Positions 4,571 through 23,320 of a stretch of 64,000 bases of DNA are shown piece by piece. The DNA comes from a phage. Within the stretch, counting starts at the first letter, position 1. Each line of letters starts with the position of its first letter. The translations under genes and the position numbers were made by a program. The notes beneath the pieces were generated by a model. That model was not told where the DNA came from and made no database searches. It was given only the letters and a program-made list of their open reading frames with translations. The stretch is from the sequence record NC_100327.1; one strand, 5' to 3'.

Positions 4571-4819
4571 TTATCCTCTCCTGCGCTTAGCTTTCGCAGC
4601 AGCTGCGGCAGCCTTCTGCTCCCGCTCCATTTCCCTGTTTTGGACGGTATCTAGGAATTCTTCGATATCAAGATACTCACAGAGCTTCAGGAAATACGCC
4701 ATATCTGCAAGATTTAGCGATTCAAAATTTTCCCCTTTGAAATTCTTGAGCACCCTACACCAAAGAAAGTCGAACCAGTTGAGTGAACTGTTCTTGGCTG
4801 CCCACTCACTGGCCCTCAC
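4571..4819 (-). CDS. tail assembly chaperone frameshift extension (candidate)
   Basis: 82-aa frame with no ATG (track M is GTG); frame stays open upstream into the 3' end of 4831..5304, the classic G/GT-type arrangement before the tape measure. Confidence 0.35.
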   Translation of the reverse strand: MRASEWAAKNSSLNWFDFLWCRVLKNFKGENFESLNLADMAYFLKLCEYLDIEEFLDTVQNREMEREQKAAAAAAKAKRRRG

Positions 4820-4830
4820 AACAACCTTGC

Positions 4831-5304
4831 TTATTCCTGCTCTTCCGGAGTCTGATCCAGGTTGTTCACCTGCTGAATCATACCCATCTGCTGTAACATC
4901 TCCAGAAGGCTTCCTAAACCGTCTTGTGTGAAAAAACAGCCGTAGTTAACCTCCAGAACCTTACCTGCCAGCTTAATCATCTCCAGCAGATGCCCTGCAA
5001 ACACAACATCTGGGTTAAGCTTATCCACACCATCTACGGTAATATCTTCGAACAAGATTTTAAATAACTCTTCAATAGAGCTATCATCAAGTTCTTGGAA
5101 CAGGTAAGCCAGAGCAGTAGGAAGGACCTCTGCCATATTCTGACCACCAGAGATAATAGATCCACCGATAGCACCTAGCGGGACAGCCACAATCTTACCG
5201 ATTTTAGGCATGTTTTTCATTGCTTTCATCGGTCCCCAGTGGGTGATCACAAAGTTGTGCCCTGCTAAATCAATCTCTGTTGTAGGTCTAAAGTTTATAG
5301 CCAT
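4831..5304 (-). CDS. tail assembly chaperone
   Basis: 157 aa acidic protein, ATG start, between tail tube and tape measure. Confidence 0.5.
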   Translation of the reverse strand: MAINFRPTTEIDLAGHNFVITHWGPMKAMKNMPKIGKIVAVPLGAIGGSIISGGQNMAEVLPTALAYLFQELDDSSIEELFKILFEDITVDGVDKLNPDVVFAGHLLEMIKLAGKVLEVNYGCFFTQDGLGSLLEMLQQMGMIQQVNNLDQTPEEQE

Positions 5305-19616: not shown

Positions 19617-19693
19617 TGGTCTCCACGGAGTGATTCGAACACTCGACCTCCTGATCCCAAATCAGGCGCTCTACCAAGCTGAGCTACGCGGAG
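19617..19693 (-). tRNA. tRNA-Pro (anticodon TGG)
   Basis: Hand-folded cloverleaf: 7-bp acceptor with C1-G72, D-arm, anticodon loop TTTGGGA, T-loop TTCGAAT, encoded CCA. Confidence 0.75.
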
Positions 19694-19703
19694 TATTTAT
19701 TAT

Positions 19704-19779
19704 TTGGTGGCCCTGGGTGGAATTGAACCACCGTCTGGCGATTATGAGTCGCTTGCTTGAACCTTCCAGCTACAGGGCC
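19704..19779 (-). tRNA. tRNA with CAT anticodon (Met, or Ile if lysidine-modified)
   Basis: Acceptor GGCCCTG/CAGGGCC, anticodon loop CTCATAA, T-arm GGTGG-TTCAATT-CCACC, CCA encoded. Confidence 0.75.
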
Positions 19780-19780
19780 A

Positions 19781-19856
19781 TGGTGCTGATGGCAGGACTT
19801 GAACCCGCAACCTATTGATTACAAATCAATTGCACTACCGATTGTGCTACATCAGC
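19781..19856 (-). tRNA. tRNA-Thr (anticodon TGT)
   Basis: Perfect acceptor GCTGATG/CATCAGC, anticodon loop TTTGTAA, T-loop TTCAAGT, CCA encoded. Confidence 0.8.
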
Positions 19857-19860
19857 AAAA

Positions 19861-19959
19861 AGGTGCTAGGTGATGGAATCGAACCACCTATGTATTCAAC
19901 GACTACCTCGTCTATTTTCAGGATTAAAAATCCTCGCCCTTGCCAAAGGGCTTACCTAG
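19861..19959 (-). tRNA. aberrant tRNA-like element with Lys (TTT) anticodon loop and ~25-nt insertion
   Basis: About 99 nt: perfect acceptor GCTAGGT/ACCTAGC, D-arm GCCC-TTTGGCAA-GGGC, anticodon loop TTTTTAA, T-arm GGTGG-TTCGATT-CCATC; extra hairpin GACGA-ggtag-TCGTT between anticodon and T arms; 3' end ACC not CCA. Confidence 0.4.
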
Positions 19960-20057
19960 CTCAGTATGTTGACCATGTTGCTAGTCGGCGATGACGACTG
20001 TAACATTTGATAATCCGGTTCTGCTTCCGACTTTCGCTTAATTACAAGGTCAACAAT

Positions 20058-20148
20058 GTGGCGGAGAGTAATGGAATCGAACCATCATCGAGTCATCCTC
20101 AACGGGACGGTTTTCAAGACCGCTTGAGCACCATTGCTCCCTACCCTC
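20058..20148 (-). tRNA. tRNA-Ser (anticodon TGA), type II
   Basis: Acceptor GGAGGGT/ACTCTCC with one G-U, anticodon loop CTTGAAA, long variable arm, T-loop TTCGATT, CCA encoded. Confidence 0.65.
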
Positions 20149-20263
20149 CTTTATAAATTATACTGATAATGACACTGATTTTCGAGCAGTTAGTGACTAG
20201 TATAAACGACGATAAATATCAATGCCATTATCTGTATTATTTATGCATCTAAAAATATAAATT

Positions 20264-20350
20264 TGGTGGGGAGTGGTGGAGTCGAACCACCCGAGTCGCA
20301 ATGACAATAGATTTACAGTCTACACCGCTACCTCTACGGGATAACTCCCC
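20264..20350 (-). tRNA. tRNA-Tyr (anticodon GTA), type II
   Basis: Acceptor GGGGAGT/ACTCCCC, anticodon loop CTGTAAA, long variable arm, T-arm GGTGG-TTCGACT-CCACC, CCA encoded. Confidence 0.75.
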
Positions 20351-20354
20351 AATT

Positions 20355-20429
20355 TGGCACCCCGTACTGGACTCGAACCAGTGTCAACGGCTTAGAAGGC
20401 CGCTGCTTTATCCACTAAGCTAACAGGGC
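20355..20429 (-). tRNA. tRNA-Arg (anticodon TCT)
   Basis: Acceptor with two G-U pairs, D-loop AGTGGATA, anticodon loop CTTCTAA, T-arm ACTGG-TTCGAGT-CCAGT, CCA encoded. Confidence 0.75.
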
Positions 20430-20525
20430 ACTGGGTGGCTTTCTTTTACACCTTAGCCGCCAGAAAAGGTGGGAGACCATGTTTACAATATTACACTGTT
20501 AAGCAAAGTTTGTCAAGAAAATATT

Positions 20526-20864
20526 TTAGCTATTGCTAACAGGTTGTATTTCTGTGGTAAATGGCATAAAAGGTGCTGGTTTTTCAGCCTCTTCTACTAC
20601 CACCTCTTCCTCTTCACCAAACATCTCATCATATTCTTCCTGCATTCGGTCTGCCTTATCAAGAACATACTCTGCAATGCTTTGACGAATATTTTGTTTG
20701 GTTTTCGGGTCCAACATCAGCTCTCTTAGAACTTTGTGAGCTTCTGGAACCATCGCTATAAAAGATTCCTTCATATCGAGGATGTTCTTCTCTAGCTGAA
20801 TGGCGTTGGACTCCTCTTTCAGAGGTCTGCCTCTACGGCGACGCTTTTTAGTTGTATCCGCCAT
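20526..20864 (-). CDS. AT-hook-like DNA-binding protein with acidic tail
   Basis: ORF track 20526..21017; start moved to ATG (MADTTKKRRRRGRPLK) with GGAGG RBS; RGRP basic motif; Glu-rich C-terminus. Confidence 0.5.
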   Translation of the reverse strand: MADTTKKRRRRGRPLKEESNAIQLEKNILDMKESFIAMVPEAHKVLRELMLDPKTKQNIRQSIAEYVLDKADRMQEEYDEMFGEEEEVVVEEAEKPAPFMPFTTEIQPVSNS

Positions 20865-21212
20865 GTTTCCTCCATTATCACGTGATAGGTGGATTTTATC
20901 ATAGCAAATACTGATTGTCAAGTTCGCCGCAGGGTGGTATTCCCTGCGACTTGTCCAGCGTCCTGGACCAGCAAGACCCAACAAGTGGGTTTTCCAGCTA
21001 TACCCATTACCGCGCACAGGCTCGACCTTATTACAGGTTGGCTGGGGTCACATCGTCATGTGCTGGCTGCCCCTACCATTTTAAGTGTGGTGCACTATCA
21101 AGCCCTCTAAGGGGAACTCAGTCTTCTCCGAACCCTGTTTCAAAGCATCCAGAGATAAAGCCATCAAATTCATCTTTAAATTGGATATTCATCATGATAC
21201 ACGAAAACAACC

Positions 21213-21455
21213 TCATTGTAAAGCACAAATAAATAAAACATACTTAATTTGTTTGTTATCAGGCTCAGGGTAGAAGTAGAAGATCTTGCTATCACCGATC
21301 TGAACACCACCATCCCAACAACATAGCCCATAACCTGTATTCATACAAGCTAAGTCGTTGGCAAAATCTATTGCATCATCCAGTGCACGAAATTCACCTT
21401 CATCTTCTAAATAATCCTCATTCATGGAACGAAAAACGAGCTTAACCTTAAACAT
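21213..21455 (-). CDS. hypothetical protein
   Basis: 80 aa ORF, ATG start. Confidence 0.4.
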   Translation of the reverse strand: MFKVKLVFRSMNEDYLEDEGEFRALDDAIDFANDLACMNTGYGLCCWDGGVQIGDSKIFYFYPEPDNKQIKYVLFICALQ

Positions 21456-21531
21456 AGCATTACCTGTAGACCTCGTAAGTTAAAATTGCATCACATCATA
21501 TTGCAGATCTTATCAGGTAACACTATTTTTG

Positions 21532-21741
21532 TCAACAGATTCCGGCCTTATCCTTCCTGTCTGCGTATTCTTTAATCGCAACCTCATCTGCATTAGTGAC
21601 CAGGTCTTCAAAGTAACTCTCAAGCTCCTCGTCAATGTCAGGAGACCAGCTCTTTTTCCTGTCAGTGTGAATTGCAGACTTGTTGAACTTATTACAGTTC
21701 TTTGCTACCGGGTTGTTCATTAAGCGCTCCTCAGCGTTCAT
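21532..21741 (-). CDS. hypothetical protein
   Basis: 69 aa ORF, ATG overlapping upstream gene end. Confidence 0.4.
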   Translation of the reverse strand: MNAEERLMNNPVAKNCNKFNKSAIHTDRKKSWSPDIDEELESYFEDLVTNADEVAIKEYADRKDKAGIC

Positions 21742-22309
21742 AGTAAATTTTATTTAACATTACCTCATCTTTTGCAGAAAGAATACCGAGATATGCATCA
21801 CCGAATCTACCTGCAACAACCTCTGCATGATACATCACTTCGTTAATATCGTCAAGAGTGATAACTGGATGACCGTATCTCTCTGAGTATTGTCTCAGAG
21901 TGCGATGTAGAGAGTCATCATCATAGGCAGACTTTTTAATATCACAAACACGACGAATAGCCTTGATGTCGAAAAAACCTGTGCGATACCACCCAAGAAA
22001 AAGGTTTCGTGCAGTGTCAACATCTACATTGATACCATCAAGAACCTTATCTACAAGATAGCTGTCATCCTTTGGACCAGCGTCCTTAGTGCGAATGTAG
22101 TTGCCATCTTTTCCAGGCGACATCTCCTTCTCATCCCCAACCTGCATGCCATCATTTGGCGGTGTTAGCCACTTATCCGGATGCTTACGATCACGAGCGT
22201 TAGAATGATTACGCTGGAAACCGGGCTTCCACTTGAAAGTTTTCTCCATCTGTTCTTCATTCTGATAACGTTTTGCAATCTTTTCACGGTCATCTTTGCG
22301 TGAACCCAT
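21731..22309 (-). CDS. hypothetical protein
   Basis: 192 aa, ATG with GAGGAGG RBS. Confidence 0.55.
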   Translation of the reverse strand: MGSRKDDREKIAKRYQNEEQMEKTFKWKPGFQRNHSNARDRKHPDKWLTPPNDGMQVGDEKEMSPGKDGNYIRTKDAGPKDDSYLVDKVLDGINVDVDTARNLFLGWYRTGFFDIKAIRRVCDIKKSAYDDDSLHRTLRQYSERYGHPVITLDDINEVMYHAEVVAGRFGDAYLGILSAKDEVMLNKIYYER

Positions 22310-22689
22310 AGCTGCCTCCTCTTCAAGTTATAGAAAAACTCACTGTATCGCTTTGTAACGAGCTTTTCTATCAAACTGGTGCGATTGCATTACCTGGTAT
22401 AGTTTATATAGCTGTGGAGCGATTTAGGGGCCTTCTTGTCAGTTTCCACACATAAACTTCATCCAAGCTCGCGCGGGAGACTCTCAACCGACTCCTTACG
22501 GCGCTGGCAAGCTTTCGTCGGTGGTCCACATCAGTGCTCGGCCTTTGGCCTGCGCTATCGCTTCGCTCCCACACATGTTAACAGACCTGCATGTATGAAC
22601 TTCTGTTATTGTGTGCACCAAGGAGGCCCGGCATCTCGCCCCTCGTAGGCGAGTGCCAATGAAGGGCCGACACTGCCCATAGTAAGTAA

Positions 22690-22810
22690 TAAATTTAAAA
22701 CATGGTACTTAGGATCTAGTATATTCTACATAAGTTAAGTATATGTACTTAGTACCATAAGTACTAGATCTTTTATTTTTTATTATTTAGTTATTTTAGT
22801 TATATTCTTT
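22690..22810. promoter_or_regulatory. AT-rich palindrome-bearing region (candidate origin/regulatory DNA)
   Basis: Over 75% A+T with GTACTTAG/CTAAGTAC-type inverted repeats and T-runs, adjacent to iteron array. Confidence 0.4.
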
Positions 22811-22812
22811 AT

Positions 22813-22900
22813 GTGTCCGTATCACGGACAGTTAGTGTCCGTATTACGGGCAGATGTGTCCGCGTGACGGACAGTAGTGTCCGTATCACGGACAGTTAAT
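22813..22900. repeat. array of 4-5 palindromic operator/iteron-like sites at ~22-bp spacing
   Basis: TGTCCGT-atc-ACGGACA twice exactly, plus variants TGTCCGT-att-ACGGGCA and TGTCCG-cgtga-CGGACA and a degenerate fifth copy. Confidence 0.7.
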
Positions 22901-22969
22901 AGTATCCGTTCCATGACGAACATAAAACATACGAATCCTTATAGTACAGATATTTAAGTTTTTACTGGT

Positions 22970-23320
22970 CTAACCAGTTGTTGACATCCGAATAACTTCT
23001 TCTGGTGGCAAAACTTTGGAAAATGTGCATCTTTTACCTCTCCCTTGTGTGGATGTTTCAACCACTCCTGCACATTCTAAAGTTTTAACGCACGCTGCTG
23101 CTTTTGTTTTCTTTATCCCAACATCTGCTGCAATTTTCCTTGTGCTTGGTGTGAAGCGTGAATTTCCTCCAAGCTTATACCAGTTGTGCAGGTAGCAGTA
23201 TACGATCTTGTCATACAAGTCAAGAACAACAACCTCCCCAGTTGTGTCATTCAAAACTTTTGACATAGATAGTATTTCAAGGGGGACTTTAAGATATAGC
23301 AGCTTATCCCCATCTTTCAT
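22970..23320 (-). CDS. winged-helix/HTH DNA-binding protein (candidate binder of adjacent iterons)
   Basis: 116 aa, ATG with AGGAG RBS; helix-turn-helix-like segment STRKIAADVGIKKTKAAACVKTLECAGVV. Confidence 0.45.
   Translation of the reverse strand: MKDGDKLLYLKVPLEILSMSKVLNDTTGEVVVLDLYDKIVYCYLHNWYKLGGNSRFTPSTRKIAADVGIKKTKAAACVKTLECAGVVETSTQGRGKRCTFSKVLPPEEVIRMSTTG

What the first reader, a model, noticed from the sequence alone, without database searches (positions are those of the whole stretch)
20865..21212. About 350 nt of GC-richer non-coding sequence with local stem-loops
Between the AT-hook gene and the next minus-strand gene there is no credible ORF; track ORFs here lack RBS and context. 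Base composition is visibly more GC-rich than flanking intergenic DNA, with multiple short complementary segments. This resembles the intron flanks in the terminase locus and could be an orphan intron remnant, a structured non-coding RNA or a long regulatory leader.
Basis: seen in the sequence. Interest (0 to 1): 0.4.

Follow-up and report, generated by a model that had tools for sequence, protein, structure and literature searches.

The report
Conserved phage RNA beside tRNA genes
The GC-rich gap in this rV5-like phage encodes a folded, pseudoknotted RNA whose core is shared with T4-like and several unrelated phages, usually beside tRNA genes; it matches no catalogued RNA family and its function is unknown.

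Summary
Window 20865-21212 is non-coding and GC-richer than its flanks (0.50-0.59 against a 0.43 mean).

It is not an intron remnant, and it is not simply the AT-hook gene's leader. Its central ~190 nt (about 20925-21114, minus strand) is a structured RNA.

The RNA's core is a three-way junction (20993-21051, one copy in the window, 65 bits). The same core occurs in over 1,000 T4-like phage records, including T4 itself, where it sits between denV and vs.8 and is partly hidden by an over-long vs.8 annotation. It also occurs in ~46-kb Klebsiella/E. coli siphophages, a ~360-kb contig whose adjacent tRNAs resemble Munch-type Salmonella jumbo phages, and unclassified phage contigs.

Helices covary while junction bases stay invariant: 95% of cells pair, against 18-50% when partners are slid, and 0 of 500 shuffles reach the observed score. 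A pseudoknot is supported in T4-like phages and mirrored in rV5-like phages.

No Rfam 15 family matches. There is no E. coli homologue and no literature hit.

Outside T4-likes the motif lies on the same strand as tRNA genes, inside or beside the arrays.

Function is untested. My best guess is a stable ncRNA module co-expressed with phage tRNAs that acts through its invariant junction.

The parts
20993..21051 (-). Core three-way junction. P1 is GCC (21040-21042) paired with GGU (21002-21004). P2 is ACCU-GUAAUA-AGGU (21025-21038). J2/3 is CGA (21022-21024). P3 is GC-CUGUGC-GC (21012-21021). J3/1 is GGUAAUG (21005-21011).
   Evidence: Covariance model R1 scores 65.2 bits, E about 3e-17, and this is the only copy in the window. 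P1 and P3 covary and P2 is almost invariant across 64 distinct sequences.
21044..21073 (-). 5' domain. P0 is GGGG (21070-21073) paired with CCCC (21044-21047). It encloses the 5' strand of the pseudoknot and the hairpin Pa, CACAU-GACG-AUGUG (21049-21062).
   Evidence: The subgroup L022-25 has GGAAC:GUUCC and CUACG-GACG-CGUAG at the same aligned positions. The homologous P0 and hairpin covary in T4-like phages.
21062..21066 (-). Pseudoknot PK1, 5' strand CCAGC. It pairs with GCUGG at 20994-20998.
   Evidence: Complementarity is kept with different sequences in relatives: CCAG:CUGG in L006, L021 and L254; GUGAGGG:CCCUUAC in L022; GAGG:CCUC in L023-25. The equivalent pseudoknot in T4-like phages covaries with no broken pair: CG10/AU4/GC2 and GC9/CG6/AU1. 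No single sequence is significant on its own.
20994..20998 (-). Pseudoknot PK1, 3' strand GCUGG.
   Evidence: As for the 5' strand.
21075..21114 (-). rV5-specific 5' block: hairpin Ha CCCCUUAGAGGG (21103-21114), linker CUUGAUAGUGC (21092-21102) and hairpin Hb ACCA-CACUUAAAA-UGGU (21075-21091).
   Evidence: The block is nearly invariant across both rV5-like subgroups while the sequence just upstream diverges completely. Because it does not vary, its pairings cannot be tested. Hb resembles the T4-like 3' hairpin GCCA-AGGAA-UGGC, which lies on the other side of the core.
20977..20989 (-). Hairpin Hc, CCCA-CUUGU-UGGG. It is dispensable.
   Evidence: It is cleanly deleted in phiWec189 (L256) and shortened in L286. 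L022-25 have CCC-AUAGA-GGG at this place.
20950..20975 (-). Hairpin Hd, CUU..GUCCAG-GACG-CUGGAC-AAG.
   Evidence: L021/L285 carry GCUCAG:CUGAGC, which is two compensatory pairs. L006 has a U-G wobble. L022-25 have GCUGG-GGACGGA-CCAGC at the same place.
20928..20948 (-). Hairpin He, CGCAGGG-AAUACCA-CCCUGCG. It is present only in the window-type subgroup.
   Evidence: It appears in the MFE and centroid folds. It is absent from L022-25. No U-tract follows it, and the terminator scan finds nothing.
20893..20921 (-). Sigma-70-type promoter of the AT-hook gene and the tRNA array: TTGACA, 17-nt spacer, TAAAAT, with an extended -10 TG.
   Evidence: 11 of 12 matches. It is conserved in L022-25 as TTGACA-17-TAAACT. 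A promoter is annotated at the same place in PVP-SE1.
20862..20873 (-). Ribosome-binding site GGAGG (20869-20873) and start codon (20862-20864) of the AT-hook gene (phrog_3330).
21115..21212 (-). Poorly conserved 5' stretch. It holds a candidate promoter TTTACA-17-TATCAT (21222-21194), a possible micro-ORF (21118-21195) and a conserved 21-nt block AAAGAUGAAUUUGAUGGCUUU (21157-21177).
   Evidence: In L022-25 this stretch is replaced by a strong promoter, TTGACA-17-TATACT, that ends about 10 nt before Ha.

Best explanation
The region encodes one copy of a previously uncatalogued, independently folding RNA module. It is read on the minus strand, the same direction as the surrounding genes.

Shown here:
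- Its heart is a roughly 40-nt three-way junction. A short covarying helix P1 closes two small hairpins, P2 with an invariant GUAANA loop and P3. The junction strands C-R-A and G-G-U-A-A are almost invariant.
- A stem P0 precedes the junction. The interior of P0 pairs with the bases just 3' of P1, forming a pseudoknot.
- The same module has spread horizontally among unrelated tailed phages.
- Outside T4-likes it sits on the same strand as tRNA genes, inside or beside the arrays. In rV5-like phages it fills the slot that tRNA genes occupy in sister genera.

Inferred, not shown:
- It is transcribed from early sigma-70 promoters as part of the tRNA-operon-type transcripts.
- It survives as a compact stable RNA, as T4's rnaC and rnaD do.
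- It works through its invariant junction by binding a partner common to all these infections, such as a host protein, the translation or tRNA-processing machinery, or a small molecule, rather than by regulating one particular downstream gene.
For: Structure:
- On the MAFFT alignment A1 (41 distinct cores), pairs 11-49 and 12-48 form standard pairs in 41 of 41 sequences with four pair types. The covariation score is 0.187 against 0.043 for shuffles (0 of 500 reach it). 94% of cells pair, against 23-46% when partners are slid.
- On the model-based alignment A3 (64 distinct sequences), P1, P3 and one P2 pair covary and 95.1% of cells pair.
- On the T4-like full-length alignment A2, P0, the pseudoknot, the 5' hairpin and the 3' hairpin all show compensatory changes. 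95.1% of cells pair, against 24-41% when slid.
- G-U pairs occur in P1 and PK1, which fits the gene-sense strand.

It is not coding:
- The shared core lies in different reading frames in the T4 and rV5 ORFs.
- Frame-breaking indels separate close relatives.

Spread:
- 118 rV5-like records carry the full region, and about 490 T4-like records match the 45-nt core.
- 1,079 records match the T4 element.
- Further lineages turn up in viral and metagenome scans.

It is not host-derived: there is no match in 5,426 E. coli genomes.

tRNA linkage:
-. The element is 33-39 nt downstream of a tRNA in L292 and L049, and between tRNAs in L100, L088, L093, L068 and L272.
- Sister Vequintavirinae genera have tRNAs in the rV5 slot.

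Independence from one particular gene:
- The gene downstream differs between lineages: vs.8, an 'internal head protein' gene, the AT-hook gene behind its own promoter, or tRNAs.
- L022-25 give the element its own strong promoter.
- No vs.8 homologue was found in the window or in the held non-T4 loci.
Against: - There is no transcript, RNA-end-mapping or stability data of any kind. Expression is inferred from promoters and gene orientation only.
- Folding energy is not better than shuffled sequence (z from -1.0 to -1.6).
- P0 and PK1 in the rV5 group rest on three sequence variants only, and the complementarity in any single sequence is not significant (p 0.05-0.99).
- In T4-like phages the element always abuts a gene's ribosome-binding site and carries an extra 3' module. 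That fits a cis-regulatory leader at least as well as a trans-acting RNA.
- No intrinsic terminator bounds the element in the window, so a discrete RNA would need processing.
- The partner is unknown.
- The search pattern fixed much of P2 and J2/3, so part of their invariance reflects how the sequences were collected. Members recovered by the covariance model still keep these bases.
Confidence: 0.45

Rival explanations
1. It is a cis-acting regulatory RNA: a riboswitch-like aptamer, a protein-binding operator, or a processive antitermination element comparable to HK022 put or rRNA boxA leaders. On this reading it acts only on the transcript that carries it, controlling expression or read-through of what lies downstream (vs.8 in T4-likes; the AT-hook gene and the untranslated tRNA array in rV5-likes).
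For: - In T4-like genera the element ends 15-25 nt before the start of the next gene, whatever gene lies upstream.
- A compact junction with invariant single-stranded bases plus a pseudoknot is typical of ligand-binding aptamers.
- In L022-25 a strong promoter fires directly into the element, and no terminator separates it from the AT-hook gene and the tRNAs.
- Long untranslated tRNA arrays are natural targets of Rho termination (general knowledge), so an anti-termination leader would make sense there.
Against: - In the window and in L022-25 a second strong promoter lies between the element and the gene, so many transcripts of the gene would lack the element.
- No alternative terminator or anti-terminator pairing, and no pairing that sequesters the ribosome-binding site, is conserved. 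The one alternative pairing seen in the MFE fold (UGGU:GCCA) is broken in L022-25.
- In several arrays the element lies after or between tRNAs rather than at the head of the operon.
- The downstream genes are unrelated to one another.
Confidence: 0.27
2. It is a new class of small self-cleaving ribozyme that cuts polycistronic tRNA and early transcripts. It would play the role that HDV-like theta ribozymes are proposed to play at tRNA 3' trailers in gut phages.
For: - Its size (about 90-100 nt), pseudoknot and invariant junction bases are typical of self-cleaving ribozymes.
- The strand order P0 - PK1 - hairpin - P0' - junction domain - PK1' is the same as in the HDV nested double pseudoknot.
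- It is tightly associated with tRNA arrays, including positions 33-39 nt after a tRNA 3' end.
- There is precedent for tRNA-linked ribozymes in phages (PMC10879173).
Against: - No Rfam ribozyme family matches.
- The base equivalent to the HDV catalytic cytosine, the first base after the junction's closing helix, is not conserved: UUUACA / AAAUAC / AUAGCU / UCCGGG.
- The inner hairpin, the P3 equivalent, is missing in the siphophage lineage.
- No cleavage site can be inferred from sequence.
- In T4-likes, cleavage would sever vs.8 from its promoter-proximal RNA, with unclear benefit.
Confidence: 0.13
3. It has no RNA function of its own. The conservation would reflect a DNA-level feature, such as a recombination or homing hotspot, a protein-binding site or part of an origin, or a decayed remnant of tRNA genes or an intron.
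For: - The element occupies the slot that holds tRNA genes in sister genera.
- Phage tRNA regions are rich in homing endonucleases.
- Thermodynamic stability is unremarkable.
Against: - Compensatory changes that preserve pairing, including G-U pairs that work on one strand only, are not expected for a double-stranded DNA site or a decaying remnant.
- ARAGORN and the Rfam tRNA model find nothing tRNA-like at the element.
- No intron model matches.
- Purifying selection is maintained across distant phage families.
Confidence: 0.05

Closest known systems
Phage T4 stable RNAs rnaC (species 1) and rnaD (species 2)
   Same: - They are small structured RNAs of still unknown function encoded in a phage tRNA operon, on the same strand as the tRNAs ('RNAs of yet unknown functions', PMC9697503).
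- The siphophage tracts that carry the new motif also carry an rnaD-like 3' end...GGCGCACCAAAUU, just before their tRNAs.
   Different: - There is no sequence or structure similarity. Model R1 scores at most 8.5 bits anywhere in the T4 tRNA region.
- rnaC and rnaD have tRNA-like 3' halves (a T-arm, a CCA end), which the new motif lacks.
- In T4 itself the new motif is about 6 kb away from the tRNA cluster, upstream of vs.8.
HDV-like / theta ribozymes of gut phages (PMC10879173)
   Same: - They are linked to phage tRNA genes.
- They have a compact pseudoknotted fold.
- The order of helix strands matches that of the nested double pseudoknot.
   Different: - There is no conserved cytosine at the J4/2-equivalent position.
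- The P3/L3 equivalent is absent in one lineage.
- P0 is 4-5 bp rather than 6-7 bp.
- The 'P4' position holds a conserved three-way junction instead of a variable stem.
- Rfam HDV-type models do not match.
Large phage- and tRNA-associated ncRNAs GOLLD and ROOL (from my own knowledge of the Rfam families)
   Same: - They are uncharacterised structured RNAs often found next to tRNA genes in phage or prophage DNA.
- They were discovered by comparative analysis.
   Different: - GOLLD and ROOL are 500-800 nt long and occur mostly in Firmicutes and other non-enteric hosts.
- Both are in Rfam and did not match here.
- The new motif is about 100 nt and occurs mostly in phages of Enterobacteriaceae.
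Three-way-junction or pseudoknot riboswitch aptamers (for example the purine, THF and preQ1-II/III classes; from my own knowledge)
   Same: - They have a small junction with invariant unpaired bases, locked by a pseudoknot.
- In T4-likes the element sits directly upstream of a gene's ribosome-binding site.
   Different: - No known aptamer family matches.
- No expression platform is conserved.
- In rV5-likes a promoter separates the element from the next gene.

Membership tests
Any Rfam 15 family (4,227 covariance models) | A score at or above the family's gathering threshold, or at least a suggestive E-value, at the element | tested here: not met
   The gathering scan of the whole window returns only six tRNAs. 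The permissive scan (E<=10) of 20400-23000 returns nothing inside 20865-21212. A permissive scan of 10 loci from other lineages returns nothing at the motif positions. A gathering scan of 11 loci returns tRNAs only.
   No intron family is hit in the window.
   The flanking genes are separate complete ORFs with their own start and stop codons. No similar sequence exists elsewhere in the window.
HDV-like / theta ribozyme | Nested double-pseudoknot order of helix strands (P1-P2-P3-P3'-P1'-P4-P4'-P2') | tested here: inconclusive
   The order P0-PK1-Pa-P0'-junction-PK1' is formally the same. However, Pa is absent in the siphophage lineage, and the P4 position holds a conserved junction.
HDV-like / theta ribozyme | A catalytic cytosine at the first position of J4/2 (PMC10879173) | tested here: not met
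   The first bases after the 3' strand of P1 vary: U, A, A, U and C in different lineages (alignment A3).
HDV-like / theta ribozyme | Self-cleavage at the 5' end of P1 | not testable with these tools
   This needs an in vitro cleavage assay.
tRNA or tRNA-like RNA (including a decayed tRNA gene) | A cloverleaf detectable by ARAGORN or the Rfam tRNA model | tested here: not met
   ARAGORN and RF00005 find seven and six tRNAs at 19617-20429 and none in 20865-21212.
T4 rnaC / rnaD stable RNAs | Sequence or structure homology to rnaC or rnaD | tested here: not met
   Model R1 gives at most 8.5 bits in T4 69500-75500. The sequences were read directly.
T4 rnaC / rnaD stable RNAs | Encoded in the tRNA operon, same strand, and accumulating as a stable RNA | tested here: inconclusive
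   The genomic linkage is met outside T4-likes. Stability and processing are not testable here.
Riboswitch (generic) | A conserved aptamer plus an expression platform (terminator or ribosome-binding-site sequestration) acting on the next gene | tested here: not met
   An aptamer-like core is present. But no terminator is found, a promoter intervenes in rV5-likes, and no conserved alternative pairing exists. In T4-likes the question stays open.
Type III toxin-antitoxin RNA (ToxI-like; pseudo-ToxI is known in the related phage PhiTE, from my own knowledge) | Tandem direct repeats of a short antitoxin unit | tested here: not met
   The window holds a single copy. Only one locus (L086) has two adjacent, divergent copies.

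The most novel reading that the evidence does not exclude
The motif is a new class of functional RNA, either a self-cleaving ribozyme or a ligand- or host-factor-binding aptamer. On this reading, unrelated virulent phages, including the model phage T4, have exchanged it horizontally as a portable module, and it manipulates a conserved step of host translation, tRNA metabolism or anti-phage defence.
Probability: 0.25. Interest if true: 0.85.

Novelty: new variant of a known kind. Interest (0 to 1): 0.66.

Why it matters
Phage tRNA regions are now thought to help phages escape host attacks on tRNAs and translation. Even so, the non-tRNA RNAs encoded there, including T4's rnaC and rnaD known since the 1970s, still have no function.

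This motif has several features that make it worth attention:
- It is supported by covariation and is pseudoknotted.
- It has moved between phage families that share almost no other DNA.
- Its junction bases stay invariant, which points to a common molecular target.
- It is present in T4, the best-studied phage. There it is hidden under an over-extended vs.8 annotation, next to the known anti-defence gene region (vs.4 encodes Acb2, from my own knowledge).

Because it is in T4, it is immediately testable with existing genetics, RNA-seq and biochemistry.

It also matters for annotation. Dozens of GenBank records place spurious 'hypothetical proteins' over it.

Tried and rejected
- **Thermodynamic folding of the region:** not significant on either strand, so it was not used as evidence.
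- **Host origin:** no blastn match in 5,426 E. coli genomes.
- **Resemblance to other parts of the window** (the terminase 'intron flanks' and the second GC-rich patch): none. The second patch is a separate rV5-clade-specific element.
- **vs.8 as an obligate protein partner:** rejected, because no homologue was found in the window or in the held non-T4 loci. vs.8 itself is a small P-loop protein with weak similarity to the terminase ATPase.
- **A short ORF inside the T4-like 5' hairpin (MNVESSE):** rejected, because 1-nt indels break it in relatives.
- **RNAalifold's pairing of CCUUU with AAGGG and of CC with the GG of GGUAA:** rejected in favour of P0 and P1, which covary across lineages.
- **Alternative pairings seen in the rV5 MFE fold** (GGGCUUGA with UCGAGCC; UGGU with GCCA): the first cannot be tested because its 5' partner is invariant, and the second is broken in L022-25.
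- **Single-sequence complementarity tests for P0 and PK1:** not significant.
- **The genome-contig scan with a 17-nt degenerate pattern:** it returned mostly chance matches and was wasted.
- **Literature searches** for the core sequence, for vs.8/denV, and for RNAs of phage tRNA clusters: nothing describing this element.
- **A circular-permutation relationship** between the rV5 5' hairpin Hb and the T4-like 3' hairpin P5: noted, but it rests on a short resemblance only.
Full report
**1. What the window is and where the finding sits**

The window is 95-99% identical to 118 rV5-like phages (Vequintavirus; the best match is slur16 at 99.1%). Genes around the finding run on the minus strand. In transcription order they are:
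- a small ORF (21455-21213, phrog_5676);
- the 348-nt gap (21212-20865);
- the AT-hook gene (20864-20526, phrog_3330);
- seven tRNA genes (20429-19617).

**2. Checking the observation**

The gap is GC-richer than its surroundings. Values are 0.50-0.53 in 200-nt windows and up to 0.587 in 150-nt windows, against a window mean of 0.431.

It is non-coding. The ORFs that cross it are broken in close relatives by 1-, 4-, 8- and 14-nt indels. The AT-hook gene has its own ribosome-binding site and a strong promoter.

Stem-loops are present, but predicted stability is no better than shuffled sequence (z from -1.0 to -1.6). On folding energy alone the finding would be unremarkable.

**3. The lead**

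A sensitive blastn of the gap against 50,697 phage records matched the 118 rV5-like genomes over its full length. Unexpectedly, it also matched about 490 T4-like genomes over a 45-nt core at 85-93% identity.

In T4 the match lies just after the denV stop codon, inside the 5' end of vs.8 as annotated in NC_000866. The shared bases fall in different reading frames in the two phages. Most T4-like records, including RB69, start vs.8 downstream of the match. The conservation is therefore at the nucleic-acid level.

The T4 version is part of a roughly 140-nt non-coding element found in 1,079 phage records across Tequatrovirus, Mosigvirus, Jiaodavirus, Karamvirus and other genera. There is no match in 5,426 complete E. 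coli genomes, so it is not host-derived.

**4. Structure of the core**

I collected members by pattern scans of viral and metagenomic contigs and from GenBank loci.

A MAFFT alignment of 41 distinct core domains (A1) supports a three-way junction:
- P1 closes the junction. Its 5' strand is the 3 nt before 'WA-CCUG' and its 3' strand is the 3 nt after 'GGUAANN'.
- P2 is ACCU/AGGU with a GUAANA loop.
- P3 is a two-pair stem with a 6-7-nt loop.
- The junction strands are C-R-A and G-G-U-A-A-N-N.

The two inner P1 pairs form standard pairs in 41 of 41 sequences, using CG, GC, UA and AU. The covariation score is 0.187 against 0.043 in shuffles (0 of 500 reach it). Sliding the partners drops pairing from 94% to 23-46%.

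A covariance model built from A1 finds exactly one copy in the window, at 20993-21051 on the minus strand (65.2 bits; the next best hit is 14 bits). It also recovers more divergent members that the pattern had missed.

On the resulting 64 distinct sequences:
- P1 shows CG, GC, AU and UA pairs;
- P3 shows CG 53, UA 8 and GC 3;
- P2 shows one G-C replacing A-U;
- 95.1% of cells pair.

That alignment is fitted to the model and so leans towards the structure, but it agrees with the MAFFT-only result. G-U pairs in P1 and in the pseudoknot fit the gene-sense strand.

**5. Structure beyond the core**

In 16 diverse T4-like elements (A2) the following features are seen:
- A stem P0, AAAG[G/C/A]:[C/G/U]CUUU, encloses a long hairpin.
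- A 3-4-nt segment inside P0 pairs with bases 3' of P1. This pairing crosses P0 and so forms a pseudoknot.
- The two central pseudoknot pairs are CG10/AU4/GC2 and GC9/CG6/AU1, with none broken.
- A further helix and a hairpin (GCCA-loop-UGGC) follow, before the ribosome-binding site.
- Overall 95.1% of cells pair, against 24-41% when slid.

The rV5-like elements have the same layout with different sequences:

| Element | Window type | L022-25 |
|---|---|---|
| P0 | GGGG:CCCC | GGAAC:GUUCC |
| Inner hairpin | CACAUgacgAUGUG | CUACGgacgCGUAG |
| Pseudoknot | CCAGC:GCUGG (CCAG:CUGG in L006, L021, BP9) | GUGAGGG:CCCUUAC (L022), GAGG:CCUC (L023-25) |

. I stress that no single sequence's complementarity is significant. 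For the rV5 group this part of the model rests on three variants plus the analogy with T4-like phages.

Natural variants also inform the 3' hairpins:
- L021 carries two compensatory pairs in Hd.
- phiWec189 precisely lacks Hc.
- He exists only in the window-type subgroup.

The 5' block (Ha, the linker and Hb) is invariant in all rV5-like sequences, so its pairings cannot be tested.

**6. Transcription signals**

Minus-strand sigma-70-type promoters lie at three places:
- 21535-21507, before the upstream ORF;
- 21222-21194, at 10 of 12 matches, about 80 nt before the structured block;
- 20921-20893, at 11 of 12 matches, before the AT-hook gene.

No intrinsic terminator was found.

In L022-25 a TTGACA-17-TATACT promoter (11 of 12) ends about 10 nt before the conserved 5' block. 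A second promoter precedes the AT-hook gene. The structured block is thus bracketed by promoters and is not the proximal leader of the AT-hook mRNA.

**7. Genomic context across lineages**

In other Vequintavirinae genera (Mydovirus, Seunavirus, Henunavirus, Certrevirus) the AT-hook gene lies inside the tRNA array, with tRNA-Thr, Leu, Arg or Cys directly upstream of its promoter. Those loci lack the motif. In rV5-likes the motif therefore occupies a tRNA slot.

In most non-T4-like lineages the motif lies on the same strand as tRNA genes and close to them:
- 33-39 nt after a tRNA in L292 and L049;
- between tRNAs in L100, L088, L093, L068 and L272;
- 160-1,700 nt from arrays in L081, L052, L105, L091, L065, L055, L104, L107, L082 and L265.

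Lineages carrying the motif include:
- ~46-kb Klebsiella/E. coli siphophages;
- a ~360-kb contig (L049) whose adjacent tRNA genes are about 80% identical to those of Munch/7t3-type Salmonella jumbo phages;
- an unclassified ~82-kb group.

In the siphophages the motif is one module of a non-coding tract of 1 kb or more that also contains an rnaD-like 3' end.

In T4-likes the motif is instead fixed immediately upstream of vs.8, or of another gene in Jiaodavirus, while the gene on its other side varies. No vs.8 homologue was found in the window or in the held non-T4 loci.

**8. Comparison with known families**

- **Rfam:** no Rfam 15 family matches at gathering or permissive thresholds, either in the window or in ten loci from other lineages.
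- **T4 rnaC and rnaD:** these are the closest analogues by context, but they are unrelated in sequence and structure. They are still described as RNAs of unknown function (PMC9697503).
- **HDV-like theta ribozymes:** they share the tRNA linkage and, formally, the order of helix strands. The defining catalytic cytosine position is not conserved here, and the P3 equivalent is missing in one lineage.
- **Introns, tRNA-like RNAs and ToxI-type repeat antitoxins:** all fail their defining features (see the membership table).
- **Literature:** full-text searches for the core sequence and related topics found no description of the element. About 1.4 million manuscripts are outside the searchable library, so earlier mention cannot be excluded.

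**9. Interpretation**

Shown:
- a conserved, covarying, pseudoknotted RNA fold with an invariant junction;
- horizontal distribution among unrelated phages;
- linkage to tRNA arrays;
- bracketing promoters.

Inferred:
- that it is expressed;
- that it accumulates as a discrete RNA;
- that it acts through the junction on a shared partner.

I rank the readings as follows:

| Reading | Confidence |
|---|---|
| Stable ncRNA co-expressed with tRNAs | 0.45 |
| Cis-acting regulatory or antitermination element | 0.27 |
| New self-cleaving ribozyme | 0.13 |
| DNA-level feature or remnant | 0.05 |

The T4-like context, where the element abuts a ribosome-binding site, is what keeps the cis-regulatory rival strong. 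The two roles need not be exclusive if the shared roughly 100-nt module is reused in different settings.

**10. Verdict**

The intron-remnant and long-leader options are not supported.

The element is a member of a widespread RNA motif family that is not in Rfam and, as far as I could find, is undescribed. It is present even in phage T4. I rate it a new variant of a known kind (phage structured ncRNAs of tRNA regions), with interest 0.66.

Noticed in passing
window 22310-22700 (minus strand), with repeats at 22800-22910: This is a second GC-rich (0.52-0.58) unannotated gap of about 390 nt. It is conserved only within the rV5 clade (118 records, 90-100% identity, mostly unannotated). An AT-rich stretch follows it, carrying direct repeats GTGTCCGTATCACGGACAG (22813-22834 equals 22877-22898). 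It could be another ncRNA next to an iteron-like or operator region.
   Followed up: partly
L091 1737-1852 (+); the same module occurs in Felix O1-like and Vi01-like phages: A second non-coding module of the siphophage tract is shared at 72-85% identity with Felix O1-like and Vi01-like phages. It gets a weak Rfam tmRNA_permuted hit (26.3 bits, E=0.11). It contains a tag-like frame GCAAACGAAGAAAUGUAUCUGGCAGUAGCCUAA, which reads ANEEMYLAVA*, reminiscent of the E. coli SsrA tag ANDENYALAA. ARAGORN calls no tmRNA there.
   Followed up: no
T4 NC_000866 64253-64912 (vs.8); L003 about 4790-4913: The reference T4 annotation starts vs.8 inside the RNA element. The conserved protein start (MRTFLTGPYLSLMNAF...) lies about 120 nt downstream, as annotated in RB69 and most other T4-like genomes. 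vs.8 is a small P-loop protein (GGRQSGKS / YIIDEP) with weak similarity to the terminase large subunit N-terminal domain.
   Followed up: partly
window 19862-19960 (-): An unusual 99-nt tRNA-like gene sits inside the array. ARAGORN reports a four-base anticodon 'atcc' and no amino-acid assignment. The Rfam tRNA model scores only 35.5 bits. The same gene is annotated in slur16.
   Followed up: no
window 21157-21177 (-), within a possible micro-ORF at 21118-21195: The 21-nt block AAAGAUGAAUUUGAUGGCUUU is identical or nearly so in both rV5-like subgroups, although the flanking sequence is unalignable. It reads ...KDEFDGF... in a short ORF (25 codons here, 8 codons in L022-25). In L022-25 it lies just upstream of the -35 box of the element's promoter, so it may be a UP-element-like or regulator-binding site rather than coding sequence.
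   Followed up: partly
L086 5087-5256 (-) and L033 (phage ST0) 440-560: These are two natural rearrangements of the T4-like element. One Karamvirus-like contig carries two adjacent divergent copies of the core. Mosigvirus ST0 has the 5' half (P0 through the three-way junction) replaced by an early-promoter-like sequence and keeps only the 3' module before vs.8. This suggests that the two halves are separable modules.
   Followed up: partly
L052, L065, L091, L096, L055 (siphophage tracts): The long non-coding tracts are built from repeated conserved stem bases (CACAACAGGUAAGAGCAUUG ... CAGUGCUCUUUCCGUUGUG) that enclose variable inserts. Some inserts are tRNA-like, with GGUUCGAUUCC T-arms and a ...CCACCA end. 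This is a cassette-like organisation that I could not explain.
   Followed up: no
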